Shown here one piece after another: positions 8,112-57,880 of a stretch of 64,000 nucleotides of DNA (positions are counted from its first letter, which is position 1; the number at the start of each line of letters is the position of its first letter). The stretch is from the NCBI RefSeq assembly GCF_036971445.1, contig NC_091475.1:46624001-46688000 (forward strand), given 5' to 3'. The position numbers were made by a program, and so were the translations under genes. The notes below the pieces were generated by a model. That model ran no database searches. It was not told the origin of the DNA and saw nothing but the letters and a program-made list of their open reading frames with translations. This DNA is from Narcine bancroftii. Lineage: Eukaryota.

Positions 8112-10517
8112 CAGTGGTTCTCAACCTTTTTCTTTCCACTCACATACCACTTTAAATAATCCCTATGCCATAAATGCTCTGTGATTAGTAAGGGATTGCT
8201 TAAGGTGGTCTGTCAGGGGGAAGGGAAGGTTGAGAATCACTGATGAAATATTCTGCTGAAGTAAATTGTCACTGGGCCATTTCCTTTGGAGTTATGAAAC
8301 CGTGCATATGAGTCAATGAGGTACAATTAAAACAGTCAACCTTCCTTCTTTCCACCCACGTGCCGCCTCCAGCAAGCCCTTGCCGTGCCGCCTCCAGCAA
8401 GCCCTTGCCGTGCCGCCTCCAGCAAGCCCTTGCCGTGCCGCCTCCAGCAAGCCCTTGCCGTGCCGCCTCCAGCAAGCCCTTGCCGTGCCGCCTCCAGCAA
8501 GCCCTTGCCGTGCCGCCTCCAGCAAGCCCTTGCCGTGCCGCCTCCAGCAAGCCCTTGCCGTGCCGCCTCCAGCAAGCCCTTGCCGTGCCGCCTCCAGCAA
8601 GCCCTTGCCGTGCCGCCTCCAGCAAGCCCTTGCCGTGCCGCCTCCAGCAAGCCCTTGCCGTGCCGCCTCCAGCAAGCCCTTGCCGTGCCGCCTCCAGCAA
8701 GCCCTTGCCGTGCCGCCTCCAGCAAGCCCTTGCCGTGCCGCCTCCAGCAAGCCCTTGCCGTGCCGCCTCCAGCAAGCCCTTGCCGTGCCGCCTCCAGCAA
8801 GCCCTTGCCGTGCCGCCTCCAGCAAGCCCTTGCCGTGCCGCCTCCAGCAAGCCCTTGCCGTGCCGCCTCCAGCAAGCCCTTGCCGTGCCGCCTCCAGCAA
8901 GCCCTTGCCGTGCCGCCTCCAGCAAGCCCTTGCCGTGCCGCCTCCAGCAAGCCCTTGCCGTGCCGCCTCCAGCAAGCCCTTGCCGTGCCGCCTCCAGCAA
9001 GCCCTTGCCGTGCCGCCTCCAGCAAGCCCTTGCCGTGCCGCCTCCAGCAAGCCCTTGCCGTGCCGCCTCCAGCAAGCCCTTGCCGTGCCGCCTCCAGCAA
9101 GCCCTTGCCGTGCCGCCTCCAGCAAGCCCTTGCCGTGCCGCCTCCAGCAAGCCCTTGCCGTGCCGCCTCCAGCAAGCCCTTGCCGTGCCGCCTCCAGCAA
9201 GCCCTTGCCGTGCCGCCTCCAGCAAGCCCTTGCCGTGCCGCCTCCAGCAAGCCCTTGCCGTGCCGCCTCCAGCAAGCCCTTGCCGTGCCGCCTCCAGCAA
9301 GCCCTTGCCGTGCCGCCTCCAGCAAGCCCTTGCCGTGCCGCCTCCAGCAAGCCCTTGCCGTGCCGCCTCCAGCAAGCCCTTGCCGTGCCGCCTCCAGCAA
9401 GCCCTTGCCGTGCCGCCTCCAGCAAGCCCTTGCCGTGCCGCCTCCAGCAAGCCCTTGCCGTGCCGCCTCCAGCAAGCCCTTGCCGTGCCGCCTCCAGCAA
9501 GCCCTTGCCGTGCCGCCTCCAGCAAGCCCTTGCCGTGCCGCCTCCAGCAAGCCCTTGCCGTGCCGCCTCCAGCAAGCCCTTGCCGTGCCGCCTCCAGCAA
9601 GCCCTTGCCGTGCCGCCTCCAGCAAGCCCTTGCCGTGCCGCCTCCAGCAATCCCTTGCCGTGCCGCCTCCAGCAATCCCTTGCCGTGCCGCCTCCAGCAA
9701 TCCCTTGCCGTGCCGCCTCCAGCAATCCCTTGCCGTGCCGCCTCTAGCAATCCCTTGCCGTGCCGCCTCTAGCAATCCCTTGCCATGCCGCCTCTAGCAA
9801 TCCCTTGCCATACCGCCTCTAGCAATCCCTTGCCATACCGCCTCTAGCAATCCCTTGCCATACCGCCTCTAGCAATCCCTTGCCATACCATCTCTAGCAA
9901 TCCCTTGCCATACCATCTCTAGCAATCCCTTGCTATACCATCTCTAGCAATCCCTTGCTATACCATCTCTAGCAATCCCTTGCTATACCATCTCTAGCAA
10001 TCCCTTGCTATACCATCTCTAGCAATCCCTTGCTATACCATCTCTAGCAATCCCTTGCTATACCATCTCTAGCAATCCCTTGCTATACCATCTCTAGCAA
10101 TCCCTTGCTATACCATCTCTAGCAATCTCTTGCTATACCATCTCTAGCAATCCCTTGCTATACCATCTCTAGCAATCCCTTGCTATACCATCTTTAGCAA
10201 TCCCTTGCTATACCATCTTTAGCAATCCCTTGCTATACCATCTTTAGCAATCCCTTGCTATACCATCTTTAGCAATCCCTTGCTATACCATCTTTAGCAA
10301 TCCCTTGCTATGCCATCTTTAGCAATCCCTTGCTATGCCATCTTTAGCAATCCCTTGCTATGCCATCTTTAGCAATCCCTTGCTATGCCATCTTAAGCAA
10401 TCCCTTGCTATACCATCTTAAGCAATCCCTTGCTATACCATCTTAAGCAATCCATTACTAATCACAGAGCACCTATGGCATAGGGATTACTTAAAAGAAA
10501 AAGGTTGAGAACCATTG
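8112..10517. mobile_element. Composite hAT (Charlie-like) MITE: two inverted ~130-bp arms plus spacer; hosts the minisatellite
   Basis: Termini CAGTGGTTCTCAACC ... GGTTGAGAACCATTG; TSD-like CACTAAAAT / CACTAAAT; same structure without the array at 51894-52228. Confidence 0.85.
8361..10460. repeat. 25-bp minisatellite, 84 units, with polar sequence gradient
   Basis: 51 identical TGCCGCCTCCAGCAAGCCCTTGCCG units (8361-9635), then stepwise variants ending in TACCATCTTAAGCAATCCATTACTA (10436-10460). Confidence 0.98.
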
Positions 10518-36927: not shown

Positions 36928-37157
36928 AGGGCAGCACTGTTAGCGCAAAGCTGTTACTGCCCAGCAACCTGGCTTCTGTCTGTAAGGAGTTTGTACATTC
37001 TCCCAGTGTCTTTGTGGGTTTTCCCCAGATGCTCTGGTTTCCTCCTACCCTTCAAAACATATGGGGTTGTCAGTTAATTGAATGCAATTGGGCAGCACGG
37101 TCTCGTGGCCCGGAAAGTTGCATTACTGTGCTGTATGTCTAATCTATAAATTTAAAT
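36928..37157 (+). mobile_element. HE1/V-SINE-like SINE
   Basis: Same core and tail. Confidence 0.8.
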
Positions 37158-39192: not shown

Positions 39193-39433
39193 TGTAGTGC
39201 ACATCGAAAGAATCAAAGGCTTGTTGATCCAAACCAAGGCTTTTAATAACTGGAAGACTGGAGGATATCACATGTAGGTCAACCAGTCCAGAATGACCTA
39301 GTCTGGCTTGGAGCAACCCTTTAAGACCTGCCAGTAGGTGTGGCTACACTCTCAGCCAATCACAGTCATCCTACACTACCATCTGTACATATGTACATAT
39401 ATACACATTGGTGATAGAATTTGTACTCTCACA
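39193..39433 (-). repeat. 3' LTR of the Gypsy element
   Basis: TGT...ACA termini; about 21 substitutions plus a small indel versus the other LTR over ~225 aligned nt (hand count). Confidence 0.92.
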
Positions 39434-42400
39434 TTCACCCCTTCTTTGAGAACTGACCCCAGGGTGGATGGAGGTCTGTTAAAAAAAAAAGAAAATAAAA
39501 GGCCCGGTGGAGGTTAGGGGCTGTACCAGTCAAGGGGCCTGATCATCTGGCGTGACCGCCGTGGTGCTGGGATTGGGGTCGCTGGAGACATGTCGCCGGC
39601 TGTCTCGTTGGGTGCGGCCACTGCTTCGCTCAATTCCCCAATGGCGTTGTCGACAGTCTGGCCTGAGCTGGTGGGGTGGTGCTGGTCCCTCTGTTTAAGC
39701 ACATGACCTGGGGGAGAAGGATTTGGGGGAGGTTGGGTTGTAAGCACTGCTGGGCCTGATCCAGCTTGGGCTAGGACCCTTACCGAAACGATGTCCTCCC
39801 ACCCGTCTGGGTACTCAATATAGACATGATGCGGGTTTGCATGGAGCAGAGTCACTCAGTCAACCAAGGGGTCGTTCTTTGAGTACCGGACATGGCGTGG
39901 CAGGAGGACCAACCTTGGGACCATATATGGTTGTTCCCGATCGGATTTCTTCGGGAAAGAGAACATCCTTTCATGGGGGGTGGCATTGGTTGCAGTGCAT
40001 AGGAGGGAGCAGATGGAGTGTAGGGCACTAGTGAGCATGTCCTGCCAGCAAGAGGTGGGGAGACCTTTGGACTGGAGGGCAAGCATAACCGCTTTCCAGA
40101 CAGAGGCATTCTCTCTTTCGACCTGCCCATTACCGCGTGGGTTATAGCTGGTGGCCCTGCTTGAAGCAATACCACACTCCAGAAGGTACTGCCACAGCTC
40201 TGCGCTCATAAACGAGGACCCCCTGTCACTGTGGATGTAACTGGGGTACCCGAAGATGGTGAAGATGCTGTGCAGGGCCTCTGGGACTGAGGAGGTGGTC
40301 ATGTCTGAGCAGGGCACAGCGAACGGGAAGCAGGAGTTCTCGTTGATGGCCGTAAGGATGTAGGTATTACAGCTGATCGATGGTAGGGGCCCCTTGAAGT
40401 CCACGCTGAGACGCTCAAAAGGGGCGGGTGGCTTTGATGGCGTGGGTGTTCTCCGGACGGAAGAAGTGGGGCTTGCACTCAGTGCACACTGGGCAGGCTT
40501 GGGTCATGGAGCGAATCTCCTTGACCGTGTAGGGCAGGTTGCGAGCTTTGACAAAGTGCGCGAACCTAGTGACCCCCGGATGACGGAGCTCCTCGTGGAG
40601 TCTCTGCAGCCTGTCTAGTTGTATGTTGGCGCAAGTCCCCCTGGAGAGCGCATCTGGTGGGTCGTTCAGTTTACCAGGCCGATACAGTATATTATAATTA
40701 AAGGTGGAAAGCTCGATTCTCTACCTGGCGATTTTGTCATTCTTGATCTTACCTCGCTGGGTATTGCTAAACATGAAGGAGACCGCGCGTTGGTCGGTCA
40801 GCAGTGAGGTAATGTCTCCAACGATGTACTGCTTCAATTATGGCCTGGGCCTCCTTCTCGACAGAGGAGTGTCGGCTCTCAGGACCCTGGAGGGTTCTGG
40901 AGAAGAAGGCTACCGGCCAGCTGGCCTGGTTCAAAGAGGCTGCCAGTGCAAAGTCGGACGCATCGCTCTCGACTTGGAACAGGATGGACTCATCGATGGC
41001 ATGCAGTGTTGCAGCGGCGATGTCCAATTTAATGCGGTCAAAGGGCATTCTGGCTTCGGTTGACAGGGGGAAGGAGGTGGTATTGATGAGTGGCCGTGTC
41101 TTGTCGGCATAGTGTGGAACCCATTGGGCGTAGTAGGAAAAAAAGCCCAGGCAGTGTCTGAGTGCCTTCTGGGTGTGGGGGGGGGGGGGGCGGGGGGAAA
41201 AAGTCCATGAGGGGACGCATGTGATCTGGGTCTGGCATTACCACCCCATTCTCCACCATGCAACCTAGAATTGTGAGCCAAGTGGTCTGGAAGACACACT
41301 TGTCAAAATTGTAGGTCAAGTTCAGCCGAATTGCAGTCTGAAAAAATTTCTCAAGGTTGGCATCGTGATCCTGGATGTCATGGCCGCAGGTGGTGACATT
41401 GTCCAGATACAGGAAGGTAGCTGTTAGCCCGTTCTGGTCCACCATCCGGTCCATTTCCCGCTGGAAGACTGCGACGCCATTTGTGACCCAAAAGGGTACC
41501 CTGAGGAATTGATACAGCCGCCATTCGCTTCGAAGGCCTTGAAAGGTGGGTCTTCTTGGTGGATCGGGAGCTGGCGATAGGCCGAACATAAGTCAATGGT
41601 GGAGAAGACGCGGTATTGGGCGATCTGATTCACCACATCTGTGATCCATGGAAGGGGGTACGCATGAAACGGTTGATTGGCTGTAGTCAACCACCATCTG
41701 CAGCTTCTCCCCATTTTTAACAACCACCACCTGGGCCCTCTAGGGACTCGAGCTAGGTTCGATAATGCCCTCGTCCAGCAGTCTGCACACCTCGCTTGTC
41801 ATAAATTCCCTGTGTTCTTAATTATATTGCCGGCTTTTGGTGGCCACAGGCTTCCAGCCAGGGGTGAGGTTTGCGAAGAGTGCTGGCAGAGCAACTTGGA
41901 GGGTGGAGAGACTACAGGTGCGGCCCCGGGGTGCGAGGGCGGGTGGCTCGGGCTGCTGCTGGCAGGAGGCTTCCAGGGTGGAGTAGTTACAGACAGAGTG
42001 GAGCGTGAGGCCCCCCAAAGTGCAGGGAAACGGTTCGAAACTGGCACTGAAAATCCAGTCCCAGCAGCACAGGGGCGCACAAATAGTTTGAAGTCTGTGA
42101 ACGTGATGCCCTGGACTTTCAGGGTCACCACGCAATACCCCTTTACCCCGATCGAGTGTGATCTGGTCACCAATGAAATCCTCTGGGCAGTGGGGATAAT
42201 AGCCAGTCCGCAACGGTGGGCCAGGTCTGGGTGGATAAAACTGTCAGTTGAGCCCGAGTCAAATAAGGAATTGGTACAGTGTCCATGCACTTCAATCAGT
42301 TCCATTGCTTTTGTAAGGGGATGGGGGCAGTCCTGGTCTAGGGTTACTGATGCAGTGACCCTACGTGATGATGTCAAGTAACGTGTGCATGGTGACATCA

Positions 42401-43574
42401 CAGAAACAGTTGGGTTGGAGCAGTCAGCGTCGAGGAGTGCCCTTGATCGGCATTGGGAGCGGGTCCCTGATTGGCAGCGGCGGTGGGTCCCTGGTCGGCA
42501 GCGTTGGTAGCGGCAGCGACGGGCTCAGCAGTGATGGCGGCAGCGGGTCTCTGGTTAGCAGTGGCCGTCGAAGTCAGGGCTGGGGCCTGGTCGGACATTG
42601 CTTCTTGAAGGATGGTGAAGCAGGGCAATGTCGTTGCGGCAAGGATGTGTTGTACCTTCCGCACTCAGCGTCTGCCCCATGACGTCAGGTGCTGCCGTGC
42701 GGTGGAGCCCTCGCTCTCATTGGAGGAGAGATCTGAGGAAGAAGGGTTTGAATGGGAGAGTGGCGGTTGGGCTTCACATGAGGCACTGTGTTTGACGGTG
42801 GCCATTTTGGAGTGACAGACTCAGCAAAGTGGCTGTTTTTAAGGCACTTCTGGCACCTGGCTTTTCTCGCCGGGCACTGGGACCTGCTGTACTTGTCCCT
42901 CCCGCAGAAATAACACTTCGGGGTCACATCGGTAGCTTAGTGGCAGCCAATAGGTCTGCTGGGGTGTAGTAGGGTTGAGGGAAGGCATCCTACTCACATC
43001 AGAGCGTAGGGTCCAGCCAGAGAGTACATGACCATACTTAAGACCACATCCTCCATTGTCTCTGCGATCCGGATCACGTCCTCTAGGTTTTCTTCCCTGT
43101 GCTCTAGCAGGCGCTGCCTCACCTCATTCAATCGAACCCCGGCCATGTAGCCATCCCGAATGAGATCGTCTGTGGTCTCCGCAGCAGTCTGTGCAGGCAC
43201 AGTCTCTGCCCATTGCCCTTAGTGCTTGAATATAAGCTCTACAAGACTTACCGGGCCGTTGCCTCCTTGTCACTAGTTTGTACCGAGCATAGATCCTGTT
43301 CACCAGTCGCTTGTAGAGCCCTTTCAGCACCTTCATGCATGTGGCGTAAGTGGTCACATCCTGGATGCCCTGGTAGACTCTCAGGGACACCATAGTCATC
43401 AGTATTAGTTGTCGATGGCTGTCCTCTATCACGGCAGGGTCAGAGAGTTGTATGTATGTTTCGAAGCATCTCACCCAGTGCTTAAAGTCATTTGAGGCTG
43501 TAGCCGACTGTGGGTCGATGTCGAGGCGTTGCAGCCATAGCTCCATCCCTTTCAAACTTTCTAGTTAATAAAAT

Positions 43575-43798
43575 TGTAGAGTGCGTCGAAAGAATCAAAG
43601 GCTTGTTGATCCAAACCAAGGCTTTTATTAACTAGAAGACTGGAGCGTATCACATGTAGGTCGACCAGTCCATAATGACCTGGTCTGGCTGGGAGGAACC
43701 CTTTAAGACCTGCCAGTAGGCGTGGCTATGCTCTCAGCCAATCACAGTCATCCTGCACTACAATCTATACATATACTCATTGGTGATAGAATCTGTAC
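43575..43798 (-). repeat. 5' LTR of the Gypsy element (outer end slightly truncated)
   Basis: Direct repeat of 39193-39433; AATAAA and TATA-like TCTTAAAG on the element sense strand. Confidence 0.9.
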
Positions 43799-43877: not shown

Positions 43878-44070
43878 TTAAATTTTAAATTTAAATTTTA
43901 GTTGAGTCTGAGCCACCCAATTACACCCAATTAACCTACAGCCCCCAGCACATTTTGAGGAAACCAGGGCACCCACACAGGGATGGGGAGAGCGTGCAAA
44001 CTCCTTACAGACAGTGTGGGATTTAAACCCCAGACCTGATAGCTGTTGCTGTAATAGCATTGTGCTGCCC
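43878..44070 (-). mobile_element. HE1/V-SINE-like SINE
   Basis: Same core; (TTTAAA)n tail. Confidence 0.75.
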
Positions 44071-44399
44071 TCTTATTGAACATGTACACATACATATTAC
44101 AAAAAAAATTCTTAGAGCGCATTGAGTCATGAGGGTACCATAAGCATAAAACTGAGGATGTAAAAACTTAATAAAAATAATTTTAAAATAATTCTTATAA
44201 AATGAATATCTTAGAGAGATCCTTGAGCTTAATATTCCTTTACAAGTTTTTTTGATGTCAGGCTCCATATTGAATAGTGAAGGTCACCTTTTGTGATATC
44301 AAGTCTTTTCCTGGATTTCGCCAAGTAACTACCTTGCTGAATACACATCCAACTACCATTCATTCTTGTGCAACAGTTTACCCCTCCCCTCCATTTTTG

Positions 44400-55803: not shown

Positions 55804-56179
55804 TGTTTATGTTTGGGATCTGAGCGATGCTCAGCAAAGCCAGCATTTATTGGTTGCAGAGAGACTTAGATTAGGAGACTGGGTAAAGAAGTGGCCAATT
55901 TTGGAAGTATATAGTCTGGCAGGGTGGGTATAATCCTTGCTTATAGGGTGTGAATGACTGCATCACCTGTGTAAATTAATACTTGTGTGCTGTCTAATGT
56001 TTTTCCCCGTTTGTTTCCCGTTACAATGGGTTCCCACGCTCTCTTATAAATTCTGTGCATTTGTTCCCTTGTTCCCTTATAAATTGCCTTTCTTATTAAT
56101 TGTTGTGTTAATAAAAACCCTTGTGTCCAGACTCGTCCCTCTTTGAACCCACTGAATCTGCCACTTTCTCTGCAAAACA
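55804..56179 (+). mobile_element. Putative solo LTR
   Basis: TGTTT...AAACA termini; TATAAA and AATAAA in promoter-then-poly(A) order; no TSD found. Confidence 0.5.
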
Positions 56180-57880
56180 TATAGACAACAAACAATAATG
56201 GTCCCAACACCGATCCCTGAGGCACACCACTAATCACAGGCCTACCATCTGAGAAGCAATCATCCACTACCACTCTCAATCTTCTCCCATTCAGCCAAAT
56301 CCATTTTACAAACTCTCCATGGATACCTAGTGTATGAACCTTCTGAACTACCCTCCCATGTGGGACCTTGTCAAAGGTCTTATTAAAGTCCATATAGACA
56401 ACATCCACAGCCTTTTCTTCATCTACTTTCTTGGTAACCTCCTTGAAAAACTATAAAATTTGTTGAACACAACCTACCATGCACAAAGCCATGCTGACTC
56501 TCCTTAATCAGCCCTTGGCTGTCCAAATACTTGTATAACCGATCTCTCAGAACACCCTCCAATAATTTGCCCATTGCTGACATCAAGCTCACCAGCCTGT
56601 AATTTCCTGGTTAACTTTTGGAGACTTTTTTAAATAACGCTACCTCCTAATCTTCCAGCACCTCACCCGTACCTAAGGACATTTTAAATATTTCTGCCAG
56701 GGACTCTGTAATTTCTACGTGAGTCTCCCTCAAGATCCGAGAGAATGTTATGTTAGGCCCTGGGGATTTATCTACTTTTATTGGGTAGCAACGCATTTCC
56801 AGCACGAGTGATAGGAACTGGTCTAAGGTTCGAATCACGTGCTGTCTGTAAAGAGTTTGTGGGTTTTCTTCGGGGGCTCTGGTTTCCTCCCGCCATTCAA
56901 AATGTACCGAGGATGTACGTTAATGGGGTGTAAATTGGATGGCATGGACGTGACCGAAGTGGCCTGTTACTGTGCTGCATGTCTAAATTTTTTTAAATTA
57001 CATTTTTTCACTGTAAGGCAGCAAGCATCTCCTCCTCTTTAATCTCTATATGTTCCATGGCACTACTACTTGTTTTCCTTCCTTATCCAGTGTCCTGAGT
57101 AAATACTGTTGCAAAAAAAACATTTAAGATCTCCCCCATCTCGTTAAGATCCACATATAGTTGACCACTCTGATCTTATATGGCACCAAATTTGTTCTTT
57201 ATTATCTTTTTACTCTTAACATACTTGCAGAAACCCTTCGGCTTTACCTTCACATTATCTGCCAAAGCAACCTCATGTCTTCTTTTTGCCTTCCTGATTT
57301 CCTTCTTAATTATTCTTTTACATTCTCTATACTCTTCTCGTACCTCATTTGCTCCTTATTGTCTCTACCTGCTCTATGCCTCTTTCTTCCTCTTTACCAG
57401 ATTGCCAATATCCCTTGAAAACCAAAGTTCCCTATACCTTTAATCCTGACAGTAACATGCAAACTCTGCACTCTCAAAATTTCGCCTTTGAAGGAGTTCT
57501 ACTTACTGACAAGTAAGTATTTGCCAGACAACTAATCCCAGACTCTTCCTCGATTTTTTCTCAATTCCACAAAATTGGCTTTTCTCCAATTTAGAATCCC
57601 AACTCAAGGACCAGACCTATCCATATCCATAATTAACTTGAAACTAATGACATCATGGTCACTGGACCCAAAATATTTGCCTCCACATACTTCTGTCACC
57701 TGACCTGTCTAGTTCCCCAATAGGAGATCAAGTACTGGATCCTCTCTCATTGGTACCTCTATATATCAATTTAGAAAACTACCTTGAACACATTTGACAA
57801 ACTCAAAGCCATCCAGCCCTGTTACAGAATGGGTCCTACTATCATAACTTTCTGTTTCTTACATCGGTCTGCCTTCTCTC
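56180..57880 (-). mobile_element. Degraded CR1 LINE ORF2, interrupted by a SINE
   Basis: DVVYMDFNKTFDKVPHGR, GVPQGSVLGPLLF, DKSPGP motifs. Confidence 0.85.
56785..56998 (+). mobile_element. HE1/V-SINE-like SINE nested in CR1
   Basis: B-box GGTTCGAATC, family core and tail. Confidence 0.75.

What the first reader, a model, noticed from the sequence alone, without database searches (positions are those of the whole stretch)
43559..43637. Gypsy element lacks a tRNA PBS and has a perfect 15-nt complement to its own LTR: candidate self-priming
Seen: on the element strand the 5' LTR ends ...CTCTACA, then one A, then TTTTATTAACTAGAA (43573-43559), with no TGG (the complement of tRNA CCA). This 15-mer is the exact reverse complement of TTCTAGTTAATAAAA (43637-43623) inside the LTR, 49 nt away, which overlaps the AATAAA signal. 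Pairing puts the 3' end of the LTR segment adjacent to the U5 edge, the geometry needed for minus-strand priming after cleavage. Established: Tf1/Tf2 of fission yeast self-prime using the first ~11 nt of the transcript. Here the pairing segment appears to lie ~40 nt downstream of the predicted initiator and is the poly(A) signal itself, and I see no chromodomain. Inference: a tRNA-independent priming variant that could also hide the 5' poly(A) signal. Self-primed Gypsy groups may already be catalogued, so novelty needs checking.
Basis: partly seen in the sequence, partly recalled or inferred. Interest (0 to 1): 0.7.

Follow-up and report, generated by a model that had tools for sequence, protein, structure and literature searches.

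The report
Self-priming signature in animal Gypsy retrotransposons
A decayed jumping gene, like its relatives in many animals, has no landing site for a host tRNA; the spot where DNA copying must start pairs instead with the element's own terminal repeat, so the group very probably starts copying itself with a piece of its own RNA.

Summary
The 15/15 complement is real and sits at the primer-binding position, one base after the 5' LTR of a decayed Ty3/gypsy element whose closest named proteins are from rays. It is a clade trait: 20 of 25 related families show an exact 10-18 nt LTR complement there, as do 5 of 5 held-out elements, while 3 of 3 outgroup elements have a TGG tRNA site. The letters change and the pairing stays: 266 of 273 cells are Watson-Crick, one is G-U, and pairing falls to background at position 17. 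One near-identical copy (L014) carries both halves of a compensatory change, and host copies vary at the two partners 43635/43561. This fits a self-primer that is copied back into the PBS, as in Tf1. The clade lacks a chromodomain and has two zinc knuckles, so it is probably not Tf1/sushi; no reference tree was possible. No priming was shown biochemically. This scan noted the same trait earlier on other genomes.

The parts
43575..43798 (-). 5' LTR (its first 7 nt are missing relative to the 3' LTR, so no target-site duplication can be read)
   Evidence: D1, D3; loose ends at 43798 and 43573-43575; 21 differences in 224 aligned columns to the 3' LTR, K2P 0.10
43623..43637 (-). LTR arm, putative self-primer; overlaps AATAAA at 43629-43624
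   Evidence: (I21); same arm in relatives
43559..43573 (-). Primer-binding site, exact complement of the LTR arm, starting one base after the LTR end; no TGG
43637..43643 (-). Initiator-like word CCAGTCT (A at 43641), candidate start site 4 nt upstream of the arm; present in both LTRs
   Evidence: function inferred
43672..43678 (-).
   Evidence: function inferred
42446..43546 (-). gag, ATG 12 nt after the PBS; broken, pieces in more than one frame
39514..42416 (-). pol in the order protease, RT (motif YLDN), RNase H, integrase; broken by frameshifts; no chromodomain
39434..39447 (-). Polypurine tract
39193..39433 (-). 3' LTR, TG...CA; its copy of the arm has two mismatches to the PBS

Best explanation
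This is a decayed copy of a widespread animal Ty3/gypsy clade that primes minus-strand DNA synthesis with its own RNA. The stretch near the 5' end of the transcript (about 13-18 nt, ending in ...TAAA) folds onto the PBS one base past the LTR; a cut at the 3' side of the arm, most likely by the element's RT/RNase H as in Tf1, gives a 3'-OH facing U5; RT copies the ~48 nt back to the cut, jumps to the 3' R and goes on. In plus-strand synthesis the primer is copied, so the PBS is rewritten from the LTR arm each round, which keeps the two strictly complementary. Shown: the complement, its position, its conservation with changed letters, its sharp edge, its absence from tRNA-primed outgroups. Inferred: the cut, the enzyme, the start site, priming itself and the copying of primer into PBS.
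For: 20 of 25 families (37 loci with a readable 5' end, out of 80 fetched plus the window) have an exact complement of 10-18 nt; 196 control positions gave at most 10. Held-out set: 5 of 5 in-clade elements with the LTR-gag junction have 10-15 nt; 3 of 3 outgroup elements with two LTRs have TGG and only 6-7 nt. Positions 1-13: 266 of 273 cells Watson-Crick, 1 G-U, 6 mismatches; background from position 17. 221 of 231 paired against a mean of 132 (max 166) when PBSs are dealt to other families; in 10 disjoint nearest pairs 37 differences are compensated, 5 not. L014 differs from L009 at 4 of 200 nt, two of them the partners of one pair. Host copies differ from this copy at 43635 (about 81-98% of depth) and 43561 (48-91%), which are partners. 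TGG at the PBS in 0 of 21; anticodon-loop pattern in at most 3 of 21 at any register. Precedent: Tf1 (PMC7175516, passages).
Against: No start site, cut site or primer was observed. The families used for the pair counts were chosen for having an exact run (20) or a near-exact one (L045), which inflates the Watson-Crick share; several are close kin, and two of the 10 pairs include a one-base register shift. The two host variants are not phased. The arm sequence is itself partly conserved (G at position 10 in 20 of 21; permuted pairs still 57% paired), which a host RNA primer could also explain. If the start lies at 43676 the primer would carry an unpaired 39-nt 5' tail, unlike Tf1. The extra helices of the Tf1 'pretzel' were not shown (combined p = 0.15). 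Five of 25 families miss the exact test.
Confidence: 0.8

Rival explanations
1. The helix exists to hide the 5' poly(A) signal (it can form only at the 5' LTR), and priming is by some other, unseen route.
For: The arm overlaps AATAAA here; 10 of 21 arms hold AATAAA or ATTAAA and 19 of 21 families have no canonical hexamer further 3' in the LTR. The TAAA end of the arm is the best-kept part.
Against: It leaves the element with no primer site (TGG in 0 of 21). A selected RNA helix would tolerate G-U pairs and drift in position; here 1 of 273 cells is G-U and the 3' arm always starts at the LTR edge. 11 of 21 arms lack a canonical hexamer. Masking may still be a side benefit of self-priming.
Confidence: 0.08
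2. The PBS binds a host RNA fragment (tRNA half or another small RNA), and the LTR arm is a decoy or a captured copy of it.
For: Half-tRNA priming is known in copia groups (PMC6317226, PMC10886601, passages). The arm is partly conserved across families. Host tRNAs were not available.
Against: 20 distinct 13-mers among 21 PBSs, median 5 differences; no fixed anticodon-loop register; each PBS fits its own LTR better than any other in 19 of 20; single-copy compensatory change in L014; no Rfam family over the region.
Confidence: 0.06
3. The helix is a leader structure for translation control, dimerisation or packaging next to the gag start codon, unrelated to priming.
For: The gag ATG follows the PBS closely: 12 nt after the arm here, and about 14-45 nt from the PBS start in 21 families (approximate starts).
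Against: Same objections as for masking: no other primer site, strict Watson-Crick pairing, fixed position at the LTR edge.
Confidence: 0.04
4. Chance or a local inverted duplication in this one AT-rich copy.
For: The arms are 13/15 A+T; the 3' LTR arm has two mismatches.
Against: 0 of 100,000 shuffles reach 14 nt; the same feature recurs with other letters in 20 of 25 families and 5 of 5 held-out elements.
Confidence: 0.01

Closest known systems
Tf1/Tf2 (Schizosaccharomyces pombe), Tj1 and the Tf1/sushi group of chromoviruses
   Same: Ty3/gypsy domain order; no tRNA site; PBS complementary to a stretch of the element's own LTR, next to the LTR end (PMC7175516, PMC4600332, 10.1101/2022.12.06.519325; passages).
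   Different: Arm of 13-18 nt, not 11; no chromodomain in 29 of 29 scanned proteins; two CCHC knuckles in 42 of 46 full-length proteins where chromoviruses usually have one (PMC2577118, passages); arm ends in a poly(A)-signal-like word; three-duplex 'pretzel' not shown; start site at the arm not shown.
Tcn1 clade (gypsy, non-seed plants/fungi) and TAR lineage (copia, plants), predicted self-primers
   Same: Meets the same sequence criterion, a complement of at least 10 bp starting 0-5 bp after the 5' LTR (PMC6317226, passages).
   Different: Different lineages and hosts: Tcn1 groups with Tf1/sushi, TAR is copia; this clade is an animal gypsy group.
Mag lineage and other non-chromovirus animal gypsy clades (A/B/C clades, Cigr-1, MolGy groups)
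   Same: Two zinc knuckles, no chromodomain, short LTRs, 5-bp target duplications in relatives, wide spread in animals.
   Different: Which named clade this is could not be tested: no labelled reference sequences were reachable. The passages read on these clades give no primer data. That Cigr-1 of Ciona has one ~1200-codon frame and ~245-bp LTRs, like this group, is recalled and untested.

Membership tests
Ty3/gypsy LTR retrotransposon | Two LTRs, PPT, gag then PR-RT-RH-IN | tested here: met
tRNA-primed LTR elements | PBS starts with TGG (complement of tRNA CCA) 0-3 nt after the LTR | tested here: not met
   window and 0 of 21 families; outgroups L089, L091, L093 do meet it
Half-tRNA-primed elements | PBS complementary to a host tRNA anticodon arm | tested here: inconclusive
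   loop pattern fits at most 3 of 21 at any register; host tRNA set not available
Self-primed LTR elements (works like Tf1) | At least 10 nt right after the LTR complementary to the element's own LTR | tested here: met
   15 nt here; 20 of 25 families; 5 of 5 held-out
Self-primed LTR elements (works like Tf1) | Primer lies at the 5' end of the transcript | tested here: inconclusive
   two initiator-like words, 4 and 39 nt upstream; no shared initiator or TATA peak in relatives; only contigs could be laid
Self-primed LTR elements (works like Tf1) | RNase H-dependent cut 3' of the primer; primer found on cDNA | not testable with these tools
   needs biochemistry
Tf1/sushi group | Three-duplex 'pretzel' leader | tested here: inconclusive
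   a short hairpin often follows the arm but is not above shuffles: p < 0.05 in 2 of 21, combined p = 0.15
Tf1/sushi group (chromovirus) | Chromodomain at the integrase C-terminus | tested here: not met
   none in the window pieces, in 29 of 29 aligned relatives or in the Pfam lists of the 120 proteins shown
Tf1/sushi group (chromovirus) | RT/RH/IN groups with chromoviruses in a tree | not testable with these tools
   no labelled chromovirus sequences at hand; the tree separates 26 in-group rows from 4 unnamed outgroup rows (support 1.0) only
Mag lineage | Two CCHC arrays in Gag | tested here: met
   42 of 46 full-length relatives; shared with Micropia/Mdg3, so not diagnostic
Mag lineage | RT/RH groups with Mag, SURL, Jule | not testable with these tools
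   reference FASTA supplements could not be read

The most novel reading that the evidence does not exclude
A large animal gypsy clade outside the chromoviruses evolved self-priming independently of Tf1/sushi, with a primer that doubles as the LTR's poly(A) signal and lies inside the leader, so that one helix primes reverse transcription and silences 5' polyadenylation, and a second processing step (not the cap) sets the 13-18 nt primer length.
Probability: 0.25. Interest if true: 0.72.

Novelty: new variant of a known kind. Interest (0 to 1): 0.52.

Why it matters
Self-priming among gypsy elements is described as a trait of the Tf1/sushi chromoviruses. If this holds, a second, phylum-spanning animal clade replicates without tRNA. 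That bears on whether self-priming is ancestral or arose repeatedly, predicts escape from silencing by 3' tRNA fragments (inference), and explains why PBS-based annotation misses these elements. The phased compensatory change between near-identical copies gives a purely genomic test for self-priming that can be applied to any LTR group.

Tried and rejected
No whole genome is held, so host tRNAs and phased host copies could not be searched. ARAGORN found 0 tRNA genes in the window and in 45 of 45 loci scanned. Two viral-contig scans found no relatives. No RNA holder was listed; four runs were guessed as RNA, and contigs cannot show starts. A conserved hairpin right after the arm was not above shuffles. 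A shared initiator or TATA position upstream of the arm was not found. A splice acceptor at the TTTAG-like part of the arm was rejected because 6 of 21 families have T in place of the A. Motif search of 14 supplements of PMC8556966 gave no hit, three files were not searched and the FASTA files are unreadable; these could name the clade. ESM Atlas returned only generic Gag clusters. Rfam gave one chance-level hit. Look-ups of earlier findings by sequence and place were empty. Dropped before counts: 44 of 80 metagenome loci without a readable 5' end; L074 from the tree for low cover; the window itself had no partner among the 10 disjoint pairs; in the held-out set L086, L087, L088, L090, L094 (no 5' junction) and L092 (no LTR end found).

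Full report
Observation. The described sequence is present exactly as stated. On the minus strand the 5' LTR ends at 43575, one A follows, and 43573-43559 is the perfect reverse complement of 43637-43623, which includes AATAAA at 43629-43624. None of 100,000 shuffles of the LTR gave a complement of 14 nt or more to the 30 nt after the LTR, and 9 of 20,000 random stretches of the window gave 15 or more. The helix dominates the predicted fold for all 10 transcript starts tried.

The element. It spans 39193-43798 on the minus strand. The LTRs differ at 21 of 224 aligned columns (K2P 0.10); the 5' LTR lacks its first 7 nt, so no target duplication can be read. A polypurine tract lies at 39447-39434. 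Gag is followed by protease, RT, RNase H and integrase, in pieces over three frames: the copy is dead. The best named relatives with high identity are from rays and sharks (Narcine 76-77% over the integrase piece), with more distant ones from a nematode, a shrimp, a damselfly, a spider and many unnamed contigs (1248 hits, 120 shown). Full-length relatives have one frame of about 1200 codons, two CCHC knuckles in 42 of 46 and no chromodomain in 29 of 29 scanned. Relatives with intact ends show 5-bp target duplications. LTR contigs are far deeper than internal ones in the host runs, which suggests many solo LTRs.

Relatives. A metagenome scan returned 80 loci (the best of 421). Thirty-six of them plus the window had a gag start with enough upstream DNA. 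Twenty-nine of these 37 have an exact complement of 10-18 nt ending just before gag, while 196 control positions in the same loci gave at most 10. Grouped into 25 families, 20 pass. Of the five misses, L045 pairs at 15 of 16, the PBS of L037 matches its 3' LTR at 12 of 15, and L036, L068/L069 and L078 show no recognisable 5' LTR at gag. Pairwise protein identity among the families runs from 30 to 88%, median 45%. A second scan gave 14 further loci not used to shape the idea: 5 of 5 in-clade elements with the LTR-gag junction have a 10-15 nt complement, and 3 of 3 distant elements with two LTRs have a TGG site and only 6-7 nt. The tree separates those distant rows from the in-group with support 1.0.

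Covariation. Anchored at the LTR edge, positions 1-13 are Watson-Crick in 266 of 273 cells, G-U in one; positions 14-16 pair in 16, 17 and 14 of 21 families; from position 17 pairing is at background. These 21 families were chosen for an exact or near-exact run, so the share is inflated, but only L037 among families with a visible LTR was left out. Dealing PBSs to other families drops pairing from 221 to a mean of 132 of 231 (max 166 in 20,000). Each PBS fits its own LTR best in 19 of 20. In 10 disjoint nearest pairs, 37 differences are compensated and 5 are not (two pairs include a one-base shift). Two within-family cases are the most telling. L014 differs from L009 at 4 of 200 nt, and two of these are the partners of one pair, changed together; its 3' LTR carries the same arm. 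In the host, other copies differ from the window copy at 43635 and at 43561, which are partners: C-G here, T-A in most other depth (four runs, not phased, 71 further rows not shown).

Mechanism. The simplest reading is Tf1-type self-priming. In Tf1 the first 11 bases pair with the PBS and RNase H cuts between bases 11 and 12 (PMC7175516, passages). Here the 3' end of the arm faces U5 one base past the LTR, the same geometry. A cut after the arm leaves about 48 nt of template for strong-stop DNA. In LTR elements the plus strand copies the primer to rebuild the PBS (established knowledge); a paper title seen only in a reference list says the Tf1 primer is not removed. If the primer is the LTR arm, any change in the arm is written into the PBS in one round. 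That explains strict Watson-Crick pairing, the lack of G-U pairs, the sharp edge and the paired change in near-identical copies, none of which a merely selected RNA helix predicts. It also implies that the edge of pairing marks the primer's 5' end, which favours a start close to the arm. The cut, the enzyme and the priming are inferred, not shown.

Two initiator-like words exist, with A at 43676 (30 nt after a weak TATA-like word) and at 43641, 4 nt before the arm. Relatives show no shared initiator or TATA position. Tf2 uses alternative starts of which only one includes the primer (PMC5341516, passages), so both could be used. The arm holds AATAAA or ATTAAA in 10 of 21 families; 19 of 21 have no canonical hexamer further 3'. 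A very short R region would force primer and poly(A) signal to overlap, so masking may be a by-product (inference).

Rivals. A tRNA 3' end is excluded (TGG in 0 of 21). A tRNA half fits no fixed register (at most 3 of 21), and the 21 PBSs are 20 different 13-mers, but host tRNAs could not be searched, and the arm is partly conserved in sequence. Poly(A) masking or a translation structure alone leave the element without a primer.

Comparison with what is known. Self-priming is described for Tf1/Tf2, Tj1 and the Tf1/sushi chromoviruses (PMC4600332 and 10.1101/2022.12.06.519325, passages) and predicted for Tcn1 and copia TAR (PMC6317226, passages). This element works like them on the sequence criterion but fails the chromodomain test, and its two knuckles fit Mag or Micropia/Mdg3 better than chromoviruses (PMC2577118, passages). 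The named clade could not be fixed. Ten literature searches turned up no report of self-priming in a non-chromovirus animal gypsy clade. I read passages, not whole texts, of 15 papers (also PMC3601003, PMC6238403, PMC3587641, PMC8556966, PMC10886601, PMC12440569, PMC6934838, PMC11673190 with no term hit, PMC5443660); PMC5006619, PMC2864245, PMC13524379 and PMC5371799 were seen in listings only. This scan noted the same trait on other genomes; I tested it here on my own set of loci.

Verdict. Real, clade-wide, most likely self-priming (0.8); a new variant of a known mechanism, in a lineage where my searches found no report of it; interest 0.52.

Noticed in passing
window 41041-41592 (-); relatives P0001-P0120, L001-L085: The RT catalytic motif reads YLDN, not YXDD. 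59 of 77 relatives with a readable motif have Asn at the second Asp, including loci with 99-100% identical LTRs, so such RTs seem to work. YLDD members also carry the self-complementary PBS. One literature search for YLDN found nothing.
   Followed up: partly
21 families, arm position 10: A G-C pair 10 nt from the arm's 3' end is kept in 20 of 21 families, and the arm is followed by RCCT in most: a possible recognition site for the cut.
   Followed up: partly
window 43576-43719: Contigs in two DNA runs jump back 144 nt within the LTR, which may reflect tandem or partly duplicated LTRs.
   Followed up: no
window 43630 and 43636: Loose ends in three runs point to related LTR subfamilies with a different arm upstream of the TAATAAAA word; their PBSs could not be read.
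   Followed up: no
window 43900-44075 and 36976-37019: A SINE-like repeat next to the 5' LTR with an inverted partial copy 7 kb away (I2); its likeness to cartilaginous-fish SINEs is recalled, not tested.
   Followed up: no
window 8359-10460: A 2.1-kb minisatellite of 25-bp units, 99% alike, with two unit types; it explains the six long overlapping ORFs there.
   Followed up: no
window 55944-56450 (-): A fragment of another reverse transcriptase (Pfam RVT_1, E 8e-9).
   Followed up: no
L081-L094: Fourteen contigs with gypsy-type LTR elements or their fragments sit in assemblies titled as bacteria, most likely eukaryotic DNA binned into them.
   Followed up: no
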